A DNA stretch of 63,994 bases, the filler included, from Stramenopiles sp. TOSAG23-6 (taxonomy: Eukaryota), in assembly GCA_900128565.1 (NCBI GenBank). It is 9 parts of 9 records of this genome, joined end to end, with 100 filler letters (N's around TTAATTAATTAA, not from the genome) between each part and the next. Parts side by side here need not be neighbours in the genome. Positions count along the whole stretch, not along the records: positions 21,736 to 28,872 come from LT636604.1; positions 28,973 to 36,104 come from LT636605.1; 7 more parts are not named here. One strand, given 5' to 3'. A program made the position numbers and the translations under genes. How positions within the stretch are numbered: position 1 is the first letter of the stretch; each line of letters begins with the position of its first letter. Shown in pieces: positions 21,883-35,500 of this stretch. The notes under the pieces are model-generated. The model made no database searches, had not been told where the DNA came from, and saw only the letters and a program-made list of their open reading frames with translations.

Positions 21883-23933
21883 TTATTTACTCTTTTCTAT
21901 ACAACTCTTTGATAAACAAAAACAACCAAATGGATTTCCATATTTCTCGGAATCAATAATTATATCACGAATACTTGATGCTGTACCTAGTACAATCAAT
22001 ATAACACTCATAAAGATAAGTGAATAAATATTGTGAAAAAATATTTCAAAAATTTGATTTTTTTTGTTAGGTACATATTATAGTACAAAAAAAAATAAAA
22101 AAATAAAAAAATAAAAAAATAAATGATGATGATGAAAACGTACATATACTATACTTGCTCCAAAATGATAAACGTATAAAATTTTTCTTGGCTACTTCAA
22201 GATACAAAACAGATGGTATTAAAAGGGCTAGAGGTGCAGAACACAAAGCTCCTATAAGTTCAACAAAGTCATCAAAAAATGGAATTGCATTTGATAAAAT
22301 CCATGCTAAAACAGAAACTATTGATGTAATAAAGAACCACTCCACCTTGGATTTATGAAAACCTTTCTGAGAAGAATGAAGTACTGTGAAAAAATATTTT
22401 TTTTTTTGGAAAAAATTGTTAGGTACAAAATTTACTACGAAAAAAAACATTCAATTTCGAAAAAACATACAAGACAATCTGCAGATTTTGCATTATAAAA
22501 TTTATGGATGCGTTTACATAACACCTGTTGATTTAGTACGTATGAAACTATCATATGCAATAGCATTAGTGCATTAGCAAAATTTCTCTTTATATTATAG
22601 GGTAATACATCCATTATATATATATTGTGAAAAAATATTTTTTTTTTTTTCGTAAAAAAAATTCGTTAGGTACGAATTTTGGTACCAAAAAACAAAATAT
22701 GAAATAGGATGAAACATACAGTGTGGCGCTTTATCACCAAGAATTGTATAACCTGAAATACATATAAAAGAGTATATAATCAGCATCACTGGAGTTGCAG
22801 TCAATAAACTTTTAGTAAAATCCTCTGGGCGTCGCATTTCGTGCATCATTTCTAAGTAGATTTTTTGTCCAGACATTGCAAAAACAAATGAGCATGTCTT
22901 GTGAAAATTAAAAAAAAATCGTTAGGTACAAAATTTCGTACCAAAAAAACATTTAATTCAAAATTAAAAGTGAATTTTGAAAACGTGCATAATGTGGTAG
23001 AAATGGTCCAAAAACTGATATTTGGAGATACGATAAATGTTTCGCCAGTCTCAGGCGCAGGTGTATCGAAAATTTCAAAAGTACACATTAGTAGAACTAT
23101 AAAAATGTATTGAGAAAAAATATTTGTTTTTTGTAAAAAATTTTAAAAAATGTTACATACAAAATGCATACAAAATTTTTAAAAAATGGTACGGAAACCC
23201 TAACCCTAACCCGAGGAGGTAAAAAATGCCTGATGAAAACGTTCATAGTGATAGCTGAAAATAAGGATGCTAGTGAAATATTCTTTAGAGTTCTCATTTG
23301 ATTGGGTAATAGAAGAATCAAAACGATGATGATTCCAGCTACTGGTCGACAGATATCTGAATTGAAGAAAATACCTTGAAGACTCTTGGATAAAACAATA
23401 ACGTAGTCACCCAGTAGCAAAAATATGGAAATATATAGCATAGCATAGCATAAGCTTTTTCCTCGAGACCCAAAGACTTCACCTGCTAAATCACCTAGCG
23501 TTGTGATGTTAGGATAGTATGATCTTGCATATACGAGTAAGAAACCAGTATAAAGGTTAGCTGCGTAGCACAGAGGTAACAAGATTAAACCACCGAGCCA
23601 ACCAACTCTTGAGAATGCACCTAAAAGCGAAAGCACCCCTGAGCCAATGATATCTGCTAGAAGCAAAAAGGATACATGATACCATTCACTTACGGCAACA
23701 AGTTGACTACCACGAGATAAACGGCGTGTCTTTGACAAATCAGGTTGATGATGATAGTTCTTTGTAAAGTCAAACTCATCAGTACTGCTTTTTAGTGCAA
23801 AGTTAATCCTCGTAGATTCATTTTCAAGAGACGAAGGAAAACTACCAGATTTTGTATTAATTTTAAACATGGAACTATTTTCATTAACGTCATCGACTAC
23901 TTCCGAACGTCCTATTGGAATTACTGAATTCAT
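21883..23933 (-). CDS. Amino-acid transporter (AAAP/Aa_trans family); 5 introns
   Basis: LLADIIGSGVLSL...GWLGG, FAMSGQ...EMRRPEDF and IPFFDDFVELIGAL. The frame is restored by removing 23105-23244, 22894-22988, 22620-22719, 22379-22470 and 22026-22143. Confidence 0.9.
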
Positions 23934-24349
23934 CTTTGCAGAAATCTCGGTGTGAAACTTATTCTTCCAAGGTCAATCTAAATTATAATGTCATTTTTTT
24001 TTCTAAAACGTTAACGTAATGTTATGACCAATGGCAATGTCATGGTTTAAAATGATAAATCGAAATAACAACACGAAATATCAAAATTATGTAAAACCTC
24101 CGAATTTTATATAAAAATCGAAAAACTTGTAACGAGTAAAAGCTTTCAAGATTTATTATAATAATCAAATTTCACCAAACAAAAAAAATAATACAAAGTA
24201 AGTGTATATGTTTGATTTAAATGGTACGCTGCGTAAGCCTCTGTAGTTTTCTTTTGTGTCCACATTGTGAGTATTCATTTCATTTTTGAAGTTTGAAACC
24301 CTAACCCTAAATTTTTATCATGAAATAAATTTTTATCATGAAAGTTTTA

Positions 24350-34500: not shown

Positions 34501-35500
34501 ATTCATGTACCTTTCAAAATTAAATGTTAATTTTTTTTTGGTATGAAATTTCGTACCTAATGATTTTTTTCTACAAAATTTTTCACAACACATGTTTTAC
34601 TCGGATGAAACTTTTCTTACATTGTGGGAGAGTTGCATTAATAAATCAGTGTTTACCTCAAATGGAAACAATGCTTAAAGAAGCAATCAATCTTATTGGT
34701 GATGCTCCTGCGATAGACTACATACCTAACTATTCGCGCCTTGGCACAAAGCAGAATACTGAAGGGTGGATGATTTCTTATATTTCTTCTTTATTATCAC
34801 TTCTTGTAGTTATACCAGGGAATCCAGACCCAAAGAAAGGAGCATTTTTTATTTTCAAGGGCTTACTAAAAGCAGTACAGAAATATCCATGGGTTTTGAG
34901 TCAAGGTGGAAAGACGGATGTGTACGTTTTCATTTCAATTTCGATTTTTTTTTTCGTACGAAATTTTGTACCTAACGATTTTGCTTTTGAAATATTTTTT
35001 CACAATACGTGTACATCAAAATGATATCAATGTTGTGTTGTTATTGCCAAAAGCGTCTTCCATATCACGTCCCTGGTGTATCTTCAAATGATGTATTGTA
35101 TGGTACAAGTGACAGAGAATATATTAAACAAGCAAATATTTATATTAATGATTTATTTGACGATGTGTGCCGCGAACAGTTACCCAAATTAATTGTGGGT
35201 GGACAGGAAGAAAAATTGACAAAGATAGGTATGCGTATGGCAATATCTTTACTTAATCAAATTCTCGCTTCAGTTGACATAACACCAAAAACAGCAAAAT
35301 ACGCAACGAAACTTCTGAAATTAGTAGCTAAAAATAAGACAGATCCTGAAACAAGTGAATATATATATTTTGCTAATACTGTTGAGTATCTCCATAAAAT
35401 GTCAACAGTTGCTGAAAGGGAAAAATCAACTACTGTAAAAGAAATCATTTCTCTTCATTTATCAGCTGTTTCTTGTCTAGATGAAACCAAGCGAAAATAA
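31538..35500 (+). CDS. VPS35L: VPS35 endosomal protein-sorting factor-like (C16orf62, Retriever subunit); 9 introns
   Basis: [64 protein letters not shown] and RKTAAF. Introns at 32355-32444, 32574-32690, 32959-33065, 33325-33428, 33443-33536, 33648-33760, 34268-34369, 34507-34593 and 34922-35010. Confidence 0.95.

What the first reader, a model, noticed from the sequence alone, without database searches (positions are those of the whole stretch)
22379..35010. 2-nt direct repeats and GTA...TAC ends suggest an introner-type DNA transposon origin
In 24 of 39 introns the last two exon bases equal the last two intron bases: 21 are AT/AT, and the rest are TT/TT (22379-22470), AC/AC (33648-33760) and GT/GT (34922-35010). 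The non-AT matches suggest the intron's final dinucleotide is a copy of the target site, not a fixed signal. The core element has short inverted ends (GTA...TAC, or ATGTA...TACAT with the flanks). Known introners generally obtain canonical splice sites from the element or its TSD; here the favoured target seems to be AT (26 of 39 upstream exons end in AT). The 15 mismatches imply later mutation or a different mechanism.
Basis: partly seen in the sequence, partly recalled or inferred. Interest (0 to 1): 0.85.

Follow-up and report, generated by a model that had tools for sequence, protein, structure and literature searches.

The report
Copied intron family with non-AG ends
Nearly every intron in this marine protist sequence is a copy of one ~100-base element that is cut out at GT...AT instead of GT...AG, which points to a mobile intron family, but the proposed two-base insertion footprint is only weakly supported.

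Summary
Observation confirmed. Exon-end and intron-end dinucleotides match in 24/39: 21 AT/AT, plus TT/TT, AC/AC and GT/GT at the stated coordinates. 26/39 exons end in AT. The boundaries rest on frame continuity (36/39), a gap-free alignment of the spliced Vps35 to 13 homologues across 9 junctions, and one RNA contig.

All 39 belong to one ~100-nt family: GTAYGTTTTCA...CGTACGAAATTTTGTACCTAAC...TTTTTTCACAATAC+NN. Only 2 end in AG. An introner-like family with a non-canonical 3' end is therefore real, and my searches found no description of it.

The TSD reading is only partly supported.
- For: non-AT matches exceed permutation (3 vs 0.54, P~0.009), and the ligated junction aCAT|Gt is palindromic around AT.
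- Against: intron-end AT (29/39) is as conserved as internal element positions. 8 of 13 non-AT exons still carry AT-ending introns, and in two of them the exon dinucleotide encodes a residue conserved in homologues.
- Missing hallmarks: no TIR beyond GTA/TAC, no hairpin, no transposase in the window.

Best reading: a mobile intron family that carries its own 3' signal and sits preferentially at AT| sites. How it spreads is unresolved.

The parts
192..288 (-). family intron in the kinesin gene; exon end/intron end AT/AT
4732..4822 (+). family intron, AT/AT; contains 4 N; a stop lies 7 codons downstream, so the frame test says nothing
10105..10203 (-). family intron, AT/AT
10826..10917 (-). family intron, AT/AT; the last 9 nt of the upstream exon (ACAATACAT) repeat the intron end
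11058..11150 (-). family intron, TA/AT (mismatch)
12441..12536 (-). family intron, AT/AT
12638..12726 (-). family intron, AT/TT (mismatch)
12886..12979 (-). family intron, AT/TG (mismatch)
14778..14885 (-). family intron, subfamily B, AT/AT
15022..15127 (-). family intron, AT/AT
21227..21344 (+). family intron, subfamily B, in the PPME1-like hydrolase gene, AT/AT
21413..21508 (+). family intron, TC/AT (mismatch); the junction codon gives Ser if the intron starts at GT, and Met if the boundaries are shifted by -2
   Evidence: homologue column A 32, S 21, M 0 of 71 rows
22026..22143 (-). family intron in the amino-acid transporter gene, AT/TT (mismatch)
22379..22470 (-). family intron, TT/TT (non-AT match; CTT is repeated)
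22620..22719 (-). family intron, CT/AT (mismatch)
22894..22988 (-). family intron with 5' GC, AT/AT
23105..23244 (-). diverged family intron with 5' GA, AT/AT; carries GGGTTAGGGTTAGGGTTT
25999..26090 (+). family intron, AT/AT
26278..26390 (+). family intron starting ATACG, AT/TT (mismatch); an internal TAG is skipped
26531..26635 (+). family intron, AT/AT; carries AAACCCTAACCC
28100..28199 (-). family intron, TT/AT (mismatch)
28344..28455 (-). family intron, AT/AT
29216..29321 (-). family intron in the Rad9 gene, GT/GG (half match)
32355..32444 (+). Vps35 intron 1, GG/AT (mismatch); the exon GG encodes a Gly also present in the closest relative P0002
32574..32690 (+). Vps35 intron 2, AT/AT
32959..33065 (+). 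Vps35 intron 3, subfamily B, AT/AT
   Evidence: (X3 record 19)
33325..33428 (+). Vps35 intron 4, AT/AT
   Evidence: (X3 record 20)
33429..33442 (+). 14-nt micro-exon between two family introns
33443..33536 (+). Vps35 intron 5, AT/AT
   Evidence: (X3 record 20)
33648..33760 (+). Vps35 intron 6, AC/AC (non-AT match; 6 nt, ATACAC, are repeated)
34268..34369 (+). Vps35 intron 7, GT/AT (mismatch)
34507..34593 (+). Vps35 intron 8, AT/AT
34922..35010 (+). Vps35 intron 9, GT/GT (non-AT match; GTGTAC is present at both junctions)
36430..36552 (-). diverged family intron, AT/AG; the 5' boundary is uncertain; starts GTATACCCTAACCCTAATCCTAACCC
37741..37870 (-). family intron in the LPMO-like gene, TT/AT (mismatch)
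37991..38088 (-). family intron with 5' GTAAGT, TT/AT (mismatch)
39631..39776 (-). diverged family intron in the Arm-repeat gene, AT/AT; missed by nhmmer
41695..41788 (+). family intron, TC/AG (mismatch; ends in AG)
45390..45485 (+). family intron, AT/AT
47844..47943 (-). family intron, subfamily B, AT/AT
46031..46118 (+). degenerate family copy between the stop codons of two convergent genes (non-coding)
28974..29064 (-). family intron cut off by a contig end. This is one of 7 such ends; the others are at 7092-7149, 14339-14395, 14496-14589, 21578-21635, 36205-36290 and 50478-50542

Best explanation
The region, and the whole window, carries a lineage-specific family of 87-146-nt spliceosomal introns, an introner-like element, that has been copied into many unrelated genes.

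Each copy brings its own signals:
- a conventional 5' splice site, GTAYGT;
- a branch-site-like TACCTAAC, 28-54 nt from the 3' end;
- T tracts;
- a conserved 3' module, TTTTTTCACAATAC.

The 3' cut falls exactly two nucleotides after that module. These two nucleotides are AT in three of four copies, so the typical intron is GT...AT and not GT...AG. Upstream AG dinucleotides are ignored.

The copies lie preferentially behind an exonic AT, giving the ligated junction aCAT|Gt. The frequent AT/AT 'direct repeat' is therefore mostly two AT consensus signals coinciding: the element's own 3' end, and the preferred insertion or splicing context. It is mostly not a footprint of target-site duplication.

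Shown here: the family, its precise removal, the non-AG ends, and the AT preference.

Inferred: that a U2-type spliceosome with relaxed 3' recognition removes these introns, that the 3' module positions the cut, and that the family is or was mobile.

How it spreads is unresolved. My odds are about 35% for a DNA element with a 2-bp staggered insertion, 25% for another DNA-level route such as microhomology-guided insertion, and 25% for an RNA-level route by reverse splicing.
For: The family:
- nhmmer finds 53 hits in 64 kb.
- Alignment A1 of 36 copies gives a consensus over the whole length.
- Each copy's best partner is 0.62-0.85 identical, against at most 0.67 for shuffled sequences.
- Position +4 C goes with CA at +10/+11 in 19 copies, and +4 T goes with AT in 8, so there are two linked subfamilies.
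- The block AAACAAAAAAATCG is shared by 14885, 32959 and 47943, with a variant of it in 21227; these lie in unrelated genes.

Abundance:
- 7 of 14 unique contig ends stop inside a family intron.
- Word depth over intron sequence runs into the thousands in RNA run X2, against 2-5 over exons.

Precise removal:
- The frame test passes in 36 of 39 introns.
- All 9 Vps35 junctions align gap-free to 13 homologues.
- One RNA contig bridges two introns and the micro-exon between them.

The 5' cut is at GT and the terminal NN lies inside the intron:
- The PPME1-like junction gives Ser, where the homologue column reads A 32, S 21, M 0 of 71 rows.
- Vps35 intron 1 gives the Gly of the closest relative.

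The 3' end:
- Intron ends are AT 29, TT 4, AG 2, and TG, GG, AC, GT once each, of 39.
- Positions -10 to -1 are each conserved in 27-35 of 37 copies, the last two included.
- 7 of the 33 introns that have a branch motif contain a skipped AG downstream of it.

The intron end is largely independent of the exon end:
- Fisher P = 0.25, and 8 of 13 non-AT exons are followed by AT-ending introns.

The public gene model of this very gene (P0001, 100% identical) reads pieces of intron as coding sequence. The source annotation therefore did not recognise these introns.
Against: - The sample is small: 39 introns from 8 non-redundant short contigs.
- Non-AT exon ends match their intron ends more often than permutation gives (3 vs 0.54, P = 0.009). 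Of the 5 introns where both ends are non-AT, 3 match fully and 1 matches half. This independence model does not explain that.
- Direct RNA evidence is one low-depth metatranscriptome contig covering two AT/AT introns. No RNA covers a mismatch intron.
- For the mismatch introns, which boundary is the fixed one rests on two protein alignments.
- No snRNA or splicing-factor gene is in the window, so the spliceosome side is pure inference.
- Copies differ from their best partner by 15-38%, so the family is not a very recent burst. Mobility is inferred from its structure and has not been observed.
Confidence: 0.55

Rival explanations
1. A MITE-like DNA transposon with termini GTA...TAC inserts with a 2-bp target-site duplication, usually at AT. 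The intron is the element plus the downstream TSD copy, so the last two intron bases are a copy of the target. Mismatches are later mutations.
For: - Non-AT matches are TT/TT, AC/AC and GT/GT: 3 observed against 0.54 expected, P = 0.009.
- The ligated junction is a(15/37) C(15) A(25) T(32) | G(19) T(16), a palindrome centred on AT, as a dimeric transposase with a 2-bp stagger would leave.
- The 38% mismatch rate is about what the family's divergence would produce by decay.
- Intron phases are even, 10/12/11, and two copies lie only 14 nt apart.
- Passages of PMC12130899 state that about 82% of confidently classified introners are TIR DNA transposons. Passages of PMC11282704 state that introners can take a splice site from the TSD.
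Against: - 8 of 13 non-AT exon ends are followed by introns ending in AT.
- In two of these the exon dinucleotide is ancestral by protein conservation. The intron's AT would then need two directed substitutions.
- Intron-end AT (29/39) is commoner than exon-end AT (26/39) and as conserved as internal positions.
- There is no covariation at -3 or -4.
- The TIR is only 3 nt, exact in 19/39, and there is no terminal pairing.
- The window has no transposase domain, no antisense copy, and only one degenerate non-coding copy.
Confidence: 0.28
2. The family spreads at the RNA level. An excised intron is reverse-spliced into another transcript at a site resembling a ligated junction (CAT|G), is copied into DNA, and is then recombined into the gene. 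No TSD forms, and the AT belongs to the intron.
For: - All 39 copies are in the sense orientation and inside transcribed sequence. None is antisense.
- There is no TIR and no hairpin.
- The intron-end AT behaves as part of the element.
- The insertion context equals the splice-junction consensus.
Against: - It does not explain the excess of non-AT matches.
- The window has no reverse-transcriptase ORF.
- By the passages I read, the surveys ascribe most introners to DNA transposons.
- Sense-only, genic-only placement is also what selection would leave after DNA-level insertion.
Confidence: 0.2
3. The introns are not mobile. They are old introns that look alike because an unusual, demanding spliceosome in this lineage requires long conserved signals.
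For: - The three best-conserved blocks coincide with the 5' splice site, the branch region and the 3' end.
- All introns in the window have them.
- Divergence between copies is substantial, with median identity 0.68.
Against: - Subfamily-specific blocks with no known splicing role co-occur with the 5' variant.
- Phases and length classes are even.
- There is a 14-nt micro-exon between two copies.
- A degenerate copy lies outside coding sequence.
- The assembly breaks at the repeats.
Confidence: 0.07
4. The true boundaries lie 2 nt upstream, so the introns are ATGTAC...CAATAC. That would make them AT-AC introns, a known terminal pair, possibly of the minor (U12) type.
For: - For the 24 introns with matching dinucleotides, both placements give the same mRNA.
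- 21 of them would then read AT...AC, a pair known to be compatible with splicing (from my own knowledge of AT-AC introns).
- TACCTAAC shares 6 of 8 positions with the U12 branch consensus TCCTTAAC (recalled from memory).
Against: - In the two informative mismatch introns the shifted boundaries give residues that homologues do not have: Met against A/S in 53 of 71 rows, and Cys against the Gly of the closest relative.
- The first base would then vary (A 25, T 7, G 4, C 1 of 37). With the unshifted boundaries G+1 is present in 36/37.
- There is no ATATCC-type 5' motif.
- The branch motif lies 28-54 nt from the end, not 10-20 nt.
Confidence: 0.04

Closest known systems
Introner elements of Micromonas pusilla (and Aureococcus), as described in passages of the review PMC11282704 and of PMC7789003. 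I did not read the primary papers.
   Same: - Thousands of similar short introns in unrelated genes of a marine picoeukaryote.
- The element supplies the 5' GT/GC.
- There is a short duplication at the boundaries.
- The copies carry no coding capacity.
   Different: - There: 3-nt TSDs with adjacent TIRs, and a canonical 3' AG co-opted from the TSD.
- Here: at most a 2-nt repeat with weak statistical support, only a 3-nt inverted end, and a 3' end that is AT (29/39), not AG (2/39).
Non-canonical introner elements of Amoebophrya sp. A25/A120 (PMC7789003, passages read)
   Same: - Repeated introns with non-canonical boundaries in a marine protist.
- Short direct repeats overlap the exon/intron borders.
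- No transposase is attached.
- The splicing mechanism is unclear.
   Different: - There: 8-20-nt inverted repeats that fold into a hairpin joining the exon ends, 3-5-nt direct repeats, and highly variable splice motifs across many families.
- Here: no terminal pairing, one family with uniform GTAYGT...AT ends, and an ordinary branch motif plus T tract.
Non-canonical introns of the tunicate Fritillaria borealis (review passages)
   Same: - Most introns are non-canonical and of presumed MITE origin.
- A duplicated exonic trinucleotide forms the 3' splice site.
- The spliceosome has become permissive.
   Different: - There: AG-AC and AG-AT termini, TIRs and TSDs, and diverse sequences.
- Here: a canonical 5' GT, one conserved family, and a 3' position set by a conserved module.
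The single dominant introner family of unknown mechanism in Parmales sp. 'scaly parma', a stramenopile (PMC12130899, passage)
   Same: A stramenopile in which one family accounts for almost all recognisable intron gains and no transposition mechanism could be assigned.
   Different: That survey kept families with non-canonical sites only when RNA evidence supported them. I saw no statement of its splice sites and could not compare sequences.
Ordinary U2-type spliceosomal introns
   Same: - 5' GTAYGT.
- A CTAAC-type branch motif.
- A downstream T tract.
- The exon-junction consensus (CAT|GT) mirrors the intron's 3' end (CAT|), just as CAG|GT mirrors CAG| in other eukaryotes.
   Different: - The last base is T, not G, in 33 of 37.
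- The final dinucleotide varies in 10 of 39 without loss of the reading frame.
- AGs are skipped in 7 of 33 introns.

Membership tests
Introner / introner-like element (a family of similar spliceosomal introns in unrelated genes) | Many introns in unrelated genes are similar to one another over their whole length | tested here: met
   53 nhmmer hits. Consensus over ~100 nt. Best-partner identity 0.62-0.85 against at most 0.67 for shuffles. Host genes include kinesin, Vps35, Rad9, an amino-acid transporter, an LPMO-like gene and a PPME1-like gene.
Introner / introner-like element | The copies are removed precisely from the mRNA | tested here: met
   Frame test passed in 36/39. 9 junctions confirmed by homologue alignment. 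2 introns confirmed by one RNA contig.
Introner / introner-like element | Positions are lineage-specific or polymorphic (recent gain) | not testable with these tools
   No genome of this organism or of a relative is held. The only redundant contig pair (99.4% identical) shows no intron difference. Gene structures of the homologues could not be fetched.
MITE-like DNA-transposon introner (Micromonas/Aureococcus type) | Terminal inverted repeats | tested here: not met
   Only GTA...TAC, exact in 19/39. There is no extension beyond 3-4 nt, judged by my reading of the consensus. No consensus pairs are predicted, and folding z-scores range from -2.0 to +0.6.
MITE-like DNA-transposon introner | Target-site duplication flanking every copy | tested here: inconclusive
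   24/39 two-nt repeats, of which 21 are AT/AT and uninformative. Non-AT matches are 3 vs 0.54, P = 0.009. Against that, 8/13 non-AT exons have AT-ending introns, and two exon ends are ancestral.
MITE-like DNA-transposon introner | An autonomous partner, or copies outside genes and in both orientations | tested here: inconclusive
   None of the 37 ORF stretches scanned (36 of the 46 ORFs >=150 aa listed, plus one of 143 aa) has a transposase or RT domain. There is one degenerate non-coding copy and no antisense copy. Only 57 kb of unique sequence was searched.
Amoebophrya-type non-canonical introner | 8-20-nt inverted repeats that pair the intron ends, plus 3-5-nt direct repeats | tested here: not met
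   No terminal helix. The direct repeat is at most 2 nt as a rule. Suffix matches of 3 nt or more number 10 against 7.7 expected, P = 0.17.
U12-type / AT-AC intron | AT-AC termini with an ATATCC-type 5' site and a branch site 10-20 nt from the 3' end | tested here: not met
   The shifted boundaries are contradicted at 2 of 2 informative junctions. The 5' site is GTAYGT. The branch motif lies 28-54 nt from the end. The U12 consensus itself is recalled from memory.
Canonical U2-type intron | 5' GT, a branch motif, a pyrimidine tract and a 3' YAG | tested here: not met
   The first three features are present: G+1 in 36/37 and T+2 in 35/37, CYTAAY in 33/39, and T runs. The 3' AG is present in only 2/39.
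Euglenid nonconventional intron | Variable borders with a stable helix near both ends that juxtaposes them | tested here: not met
   The 5' border is uniform and no conserved helix is predicted. The defining features are taken from review passages.

The most novel reading that the evidence does not exclude
A MAST-3-type marine stramenopile has replaced essentially its whole intron complement with one mobile element. That element inserts by a 2-bp stagger at aCAT|Gt, and its 3' splice site is defined by a molecular ruler, two bases beyond a conserved CACAATAC module, and not by AG. The duplicated target dinucleotide itself becomes the intron's last two bases. This would be the first introner whose TSD supplies a sequence-independent, non-AG 3' splice site. 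It would require a spliceosome that measures its acceptor site instead of reading it.
Probability: 0.25. Interest if true: 0.85.

Novelty: new variant of a known kind. Interest (0 to 1): 0.72.

Why it matters
- Introners are the best current explanation for bursts of intron gain. Surveys find them through annotated, mostly canonical introns, and discard non-canonical families that lack RNA support (PMC12130899, passage). A family like this one, in a fragmented single-cell-type assembly whose public gene models read intron pieces as protein, is invisible to such surveys.
- If the pattern holds genome-wide, this organism is a natural case in which the 3' splice site is not AG in about 95% of introns and varies in a quarter of them without harm. 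That bears on how the spliceosome chooses the acceptor.
- There is a practical consequence. Gene prediction for this lineage needs a GT...AT model. Published protein sets for it probably contain many intron-derived insertions and truncated genes.
- The family also offers a clean test of whether the similarity between exon ends and intron ends (here CAT|, elsewhere CAG|) comes from insertion footprints or from splicing constraints.

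Tried and rejected
- I looked for more copies elsewhere. A metagenome scan for GAAATTTYGTACCTAAC gave 77 loci, of which only L052 carries a full family intron, AT|GTATG...CAATACAT|G. The genome-contig scan gave 0 hits. The viral-contig scan gave 6 single-match loci that I did not examine further.
- RNA: only seawater metatranscriptome contigs with small shares were offered. Most joints are chimeras between intron copies and were ignored. 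Parts without cover say nothing. No contig covers a mismatch intron.
- Rfam (0 hits) and tRNA search (0): the introns hold no known RNA.
- RNA structure: no consensus pairs. Five of six single folds are no better than shuffles.
- Homologues for ORF 11130-12461, which would have tested three mismatch junctions: none found.
- I suspected that contigs 1 and 7 were duplicates because both hold an 882-aa ORF. They are not. Only contigs 2 and 8 are redundant.
- I considered head-to-tail junctions or circular intermediates, because CAATACAT precedes a 5' end at 10917 and near 46070. The second case is part of a degenerate copy, and the first is only a 22-nt weak similarity. I dropped the idea.
- I considered a direct repeat longer than 2 nt, or a 3-nt duplication left in the mRNA. 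There is no excess of matches of 3 nt or more. By eye, the last three bases of exon 1 and the first three of exon 2 do not correspond.
- Literature: seven searches found no description of these introns. The main text of PMC5778133 mentions introns twice and splice sites never. Its supplements, which may describe the gene-prediction settings, are closed.

Full report
WHAT THE WINDOW IS

The window is about 33% G+C and is not one locus. Eight linkers of 44 N, TTAATTAATTAA and 44 N divide it into nine pieces of 7149 down to 6139 nt, sorted by length. They are contigs of a fragmented assembly. Contig 8 (50643-57755) is a 99.4% identical duplicate of contig 2 (7250-14395) and differs only in one tandem-repeat stretch. 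I counted its introns once.

The genes are eukaryotic and compact. They include kinesin, Vps35, Rad9, an amino-acid transporter, PTPLA, EMC2, PIH1, PhyH, an LPMO-like gene, a PPME1-like hydrolase, and a helicase-associated (HA) domain protein.

A protein 100% identical to a Vps35 exon is on record in EukProt as GSMAST32.ASY1.ANO1.2573.1 (P0001). That name points to a MAST-3-type marine stramenopile. The only RNA holders offered were seawater metatranscriptomes. No whole genome is held.

THE OBSERVATION

All introns I could find share one sequence. An HMM built from 33 seeds gave 53 hits. I placed the ends with position weight matrices and curated them by hand. The result is 39 complete non-redundant introns of 87-146 nt, 19 of them in 22379-35010.

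The rule is simple. The intron starts at GTAYG and ends two nucleotides after a conserved ...TTTTTTCACAATAC.

ARE THE BOUNDARIES RIGHT?

Three lines of evidence say yes.

(i) Splicing at the predicted end leaves an open frame for 25 codons on each side in 33 of 36 introns. Each of the offsets -2, -1, +1 and +2 does so in 12 of 36, and 14 introns are open only at offset 0. Two ends used in that run were later corrected, 26093 to 26090 and 41790 to 41788. Three more introns pass the test. The three failures are explained: one has a stop 7 codons downstream, and the other two flank a 14-nt micro-exon.

(ii) The Vps35 CDS spliced by the rule is 3060 nt without an internal stop. It aligns without gaps to 13 homologues across all nine junctions, the micro-exon included. 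For example, model EMALVRCYRF aligns with P0002 EMALVRCYCF, and TSHSDAFMALGQGF with STHADCYCALGVAL.

(iii) One RNA contig (X3 record 20, 197 nt) lies on 33246-33324, then has 12 other letters, then lies on 33535-33640. That is what removal of both introns around the micro-exon predicts.

The public model P0001 of the same gene instead reads intron pieces as protein (VYVFKIEIFTYLFFRTKF, YVFISISIFFFVRNF) and skips residues at other junctions. The annotation that produced it did not model these introns.

ANATOMY

The consensus is:
AT|GTACGTTTTCA..AT.AATTTC..TTTTTTTTTTCGTACGAAATTTTGTACCTAACGATTTTTTTTT..AAATATTTTTTCACAATACAT|G

- 5' end, of 37 copies: G36, T35, A37, C23 (otherwise T), G29, T36. Single copies start GC, GA or AT.
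- A CYTAAY motif occurs in 33 of 39 introns, with its branch-type A 28-54 nt from the intron end.
- 3' end, of 37 copies: -10 C30, -9 A35, -8 C27, -7 A34, -6 A34, -5 T31, -4 A32, -3 C27, -2 A30, -1 T33.
- Final dinucleotides, of 39: AT 29, TT 4, AG 2, and TG, GG, AC, GT once each.
- In 7 of the 33 introns with a branch motif, an AG lies between that motif and the end and is not used.
- No consensus RNA structure is predicted. Five of six single folds are no better than shuffles. There is no Rfam or tRNA hit.

IS IT A REPEATED ELEMENT OR JUST STRICT SIGNALS?

I read it as a repeated element, for these reasons.
- Similarity covers the whole length. Best-partner identity is 0.62-0.85, against at most 0.67 for shuffled sequences.
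- There are two linked subfamilies. GTAC goes with ...TTTTCAT in 19 copies, and GTAT with ...TTTTATTTT in 8.
- A block AAACAAAAAAATCG with no evident splicing role recurs in three introns of unrelated genes, and in variant form in a fourth.
- Phases (10/12/11) and length classes (11/14/12) are even.
- Two copies lie 14 nt apart.
- A degenerate copy lies between the stops of two convergent genes.
- 7 of 14 unique contig ends break inside a copy. Word depth over intron sequence in RNA run X2 runs into the thousands, against 2-5 over exons. Both suggest a very high copy number, although that depth sums over all organisms in the sample.
- One independent metagenome contig (L052) holds another copy, AT|GTATG...CAATACAT|G.

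WHICH BOUNDARY IS FIXED?

Where the dinucleotides match, GT...NN and NNGT...AC give the same mRNA. For the 15 mismatches they differ, and four of those pairs still give the same protein.

Two junctions are informative. At 21413-21508 the GT...NN reading gives Ser within EGTAIQ-S-LDS, and the shifted reading gives Met. In an alignment with 70 homologues from a search of 1.84 billion representatives, the column reads A 32, S 21, M 0 of 71 rows, one of which is the model itself. At 32355-32444 the GT...NN reading gives EVTG like the closest relative's EVSG, and the shifted reading gives Cys.

The termini are also far more regular under GT...NN: G+1 in 36/37 and T-1 in 33/37, against a first base of A 25, T 7, G 4, C 1. 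I therefore take the introns to be GT...AT. They are not AT-AC.

IS THE TWO-BASE REPEAT A TARGET-SITE DUPLICATION?

For:
- Non-AT matches are 3 against 0.54 expected (P = 0.009). All matches are 24 against 19.9 (P = 0.019).
- Of the five introns in which neither end is AT, three match fully and one matches half.
- The ligated junction is a C A T | G t: -4 A15, -3 C15, -2 A25, -1 T32, +1 G19, +2 T16 of 37. The coding background is A .36, C .17, G .21, T .26. This is a palindrome centred on AT.

Against:
- AT versus non-AT at the two ends is independent (Fisher P = 0.25).
- 8 of 13 non-AT exon ends are followed by AT-ending introns.
- Intron-end AT (29) is commoner than exon-end AT (26), and as conserved as the element's interior.
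- There is no covariation at -3 or -4, and no excess of repeats of 3 nt or more (10 vs 7.7, P = 0.17).
- In the two junctions above, the exon dinucleotide (TC, GG) encodes a residue conserved in homologues. The target there was not AT, yet the intron ends in AT.
- Decay of an original AT/AT cannot explain this. It would require more and larger changes in the coding copy than in the intronic one.
- The inverted ends are 3 nt (TAC exact in 19/39). The flanking AT adds nothing, because AT is its own complement.
- No transposase or RT domain occurs in the 37 ORF stretches scanned, which are 36 of the 46 ORFs of 150 aa or more plus one of 143 aa.

MY READING

The element carries its own 3' end, including AT, and lies preferentially behind AT. 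A real 2-bp duplication, or microhomology-guided insertion, may explain the few non-AT matches, but neither is shown.

The parallel between CAT| at the exon end and CAT| at the intron end is the local version of the CAG|...CAG| pattern of ordinary introns. Its cause, insertion footprint or splicing constraint, is equally open here.

COMPARISON WITH KNOWN SYSTEMS

All of the following come from passages I read.
- Micromonas introners have 3-nt TSDs, TIRs and a canonical AG taken from the TSD (PMC11282704).
- Amoebophrya introners have 8-20-nt inverted repeats, 3-5-nt direct repeats and very variable motifs (PMC7789003).
- Fritillaria has AG-AC and AG-AT introns with TIRs and TSDs.
- A Parmales stramenopile has one dominant family of unknown mechanism (PMC12130899).

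The present family shares the principle but differs in three ways. It keeps a canonical 5' site and branch motif. It lacks TIRs. Its acceptor is a conserved module plus two bases, usually AT.

Seven literature searches found no description of it. The main text of the paper on MAST single-cell genomes mentions introns twice and splice sites never (PMC5778133).

VERDICT

The firm result is an apparently undescribed introner-like family with GT...AT boundaries that makes up all 39 introns seen here. The TSD origin remains a minority hypothesis, at about 0.25-0.35. The full assembly and spliced reads would settle it quickly.

Noticed in passing
7150-7249, 14396-14495, 21636-21735, 28873-28972, 36105-36204, 43329-43428, 50543-50642, 57756-57855: The window is nine contigs joined by N44-TTAATTAATTAA-N44 linkers and sorted by falling length. 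Features that seem to span a linker, including the finding's own interval, do not lie on one molecule.
   Followed up: yes
7250-14395 and 50643-57755: These two contigs are 99.4% identical. They differ only in a tandem-repeat stretch near 7730-7860 (a 35-nt deletion plus small indels). They are a redundant assembly of one locus or of two cells or alleles. There is no intron presence/absence difference.
   Followed up: yes
23105-23244, 26531-26635, 36430-36552, 39631-39776 (introns); also 24295-24315, 37570-37590, 42000-42015, 59655-59670; 21005-21022 in coding sequence: Telomere-like CCCTAA/TTAGGG repeats of 2-4 units sit inside four family introns, always in the variable 5' third. They also occur in several intergenic or upstream regions. 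They might be a promoter-type motif or a trace of break repair.
   Followed up: no
31538-35500: The public protein model of this Vps35 gene (P0001, 931 aa) contains translated intron pieces and skips residues at junctions. Protein sets of this assembly probably carry many such errors.
   Followed up: partly
33429-33442: A 14-nt micro-exon (TCGGATGCATTTAT) lies between two family introns. It is supported by homologues and by one RNA contig.
   Followed up: yes
10918-10940 (- strand): The exon upstream of intron 10826-10917 ends in 9 nt identical to the intron's own end. Its last 22 nt weakly resemble the family's 3' module. It may be a remnant of an older or truncated copy.
   Followed up: partly
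46031-46118: A degenerate family copy lies in the non-coding gap between the stop codons of two convergent genes (45907 on +, 46104 on -). It is the only copy seen outside a spliced position.
   Followed up: partly
28973-29210, 33019-33494, 34923-35160: In one non-polyA seawater RNA run (X2) the word depth over intron-family sequence is 1200-4600, against 2-5 over neighbouring exons. This could reflect a very high copy number, accumulating excised introns, or DNA in the library.
   Followed up: no
2187-4835 and 47842-50490: Two ORFs of exactly 882 aa, neither with any Pfam domain, are unrelated in sequence. The equal length is a coincidence.
   Followed up: yes
introns generally, e.g. 34955-34970: The central block holds the perfect palindromes TTTCGTACGAAA and, in some copies, GTACGAAATTTCGTAC. 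The 5' GUACG can pair with the internal CGUAC. Folding gives no significant signal and I assign no function.
   Followed up: partly
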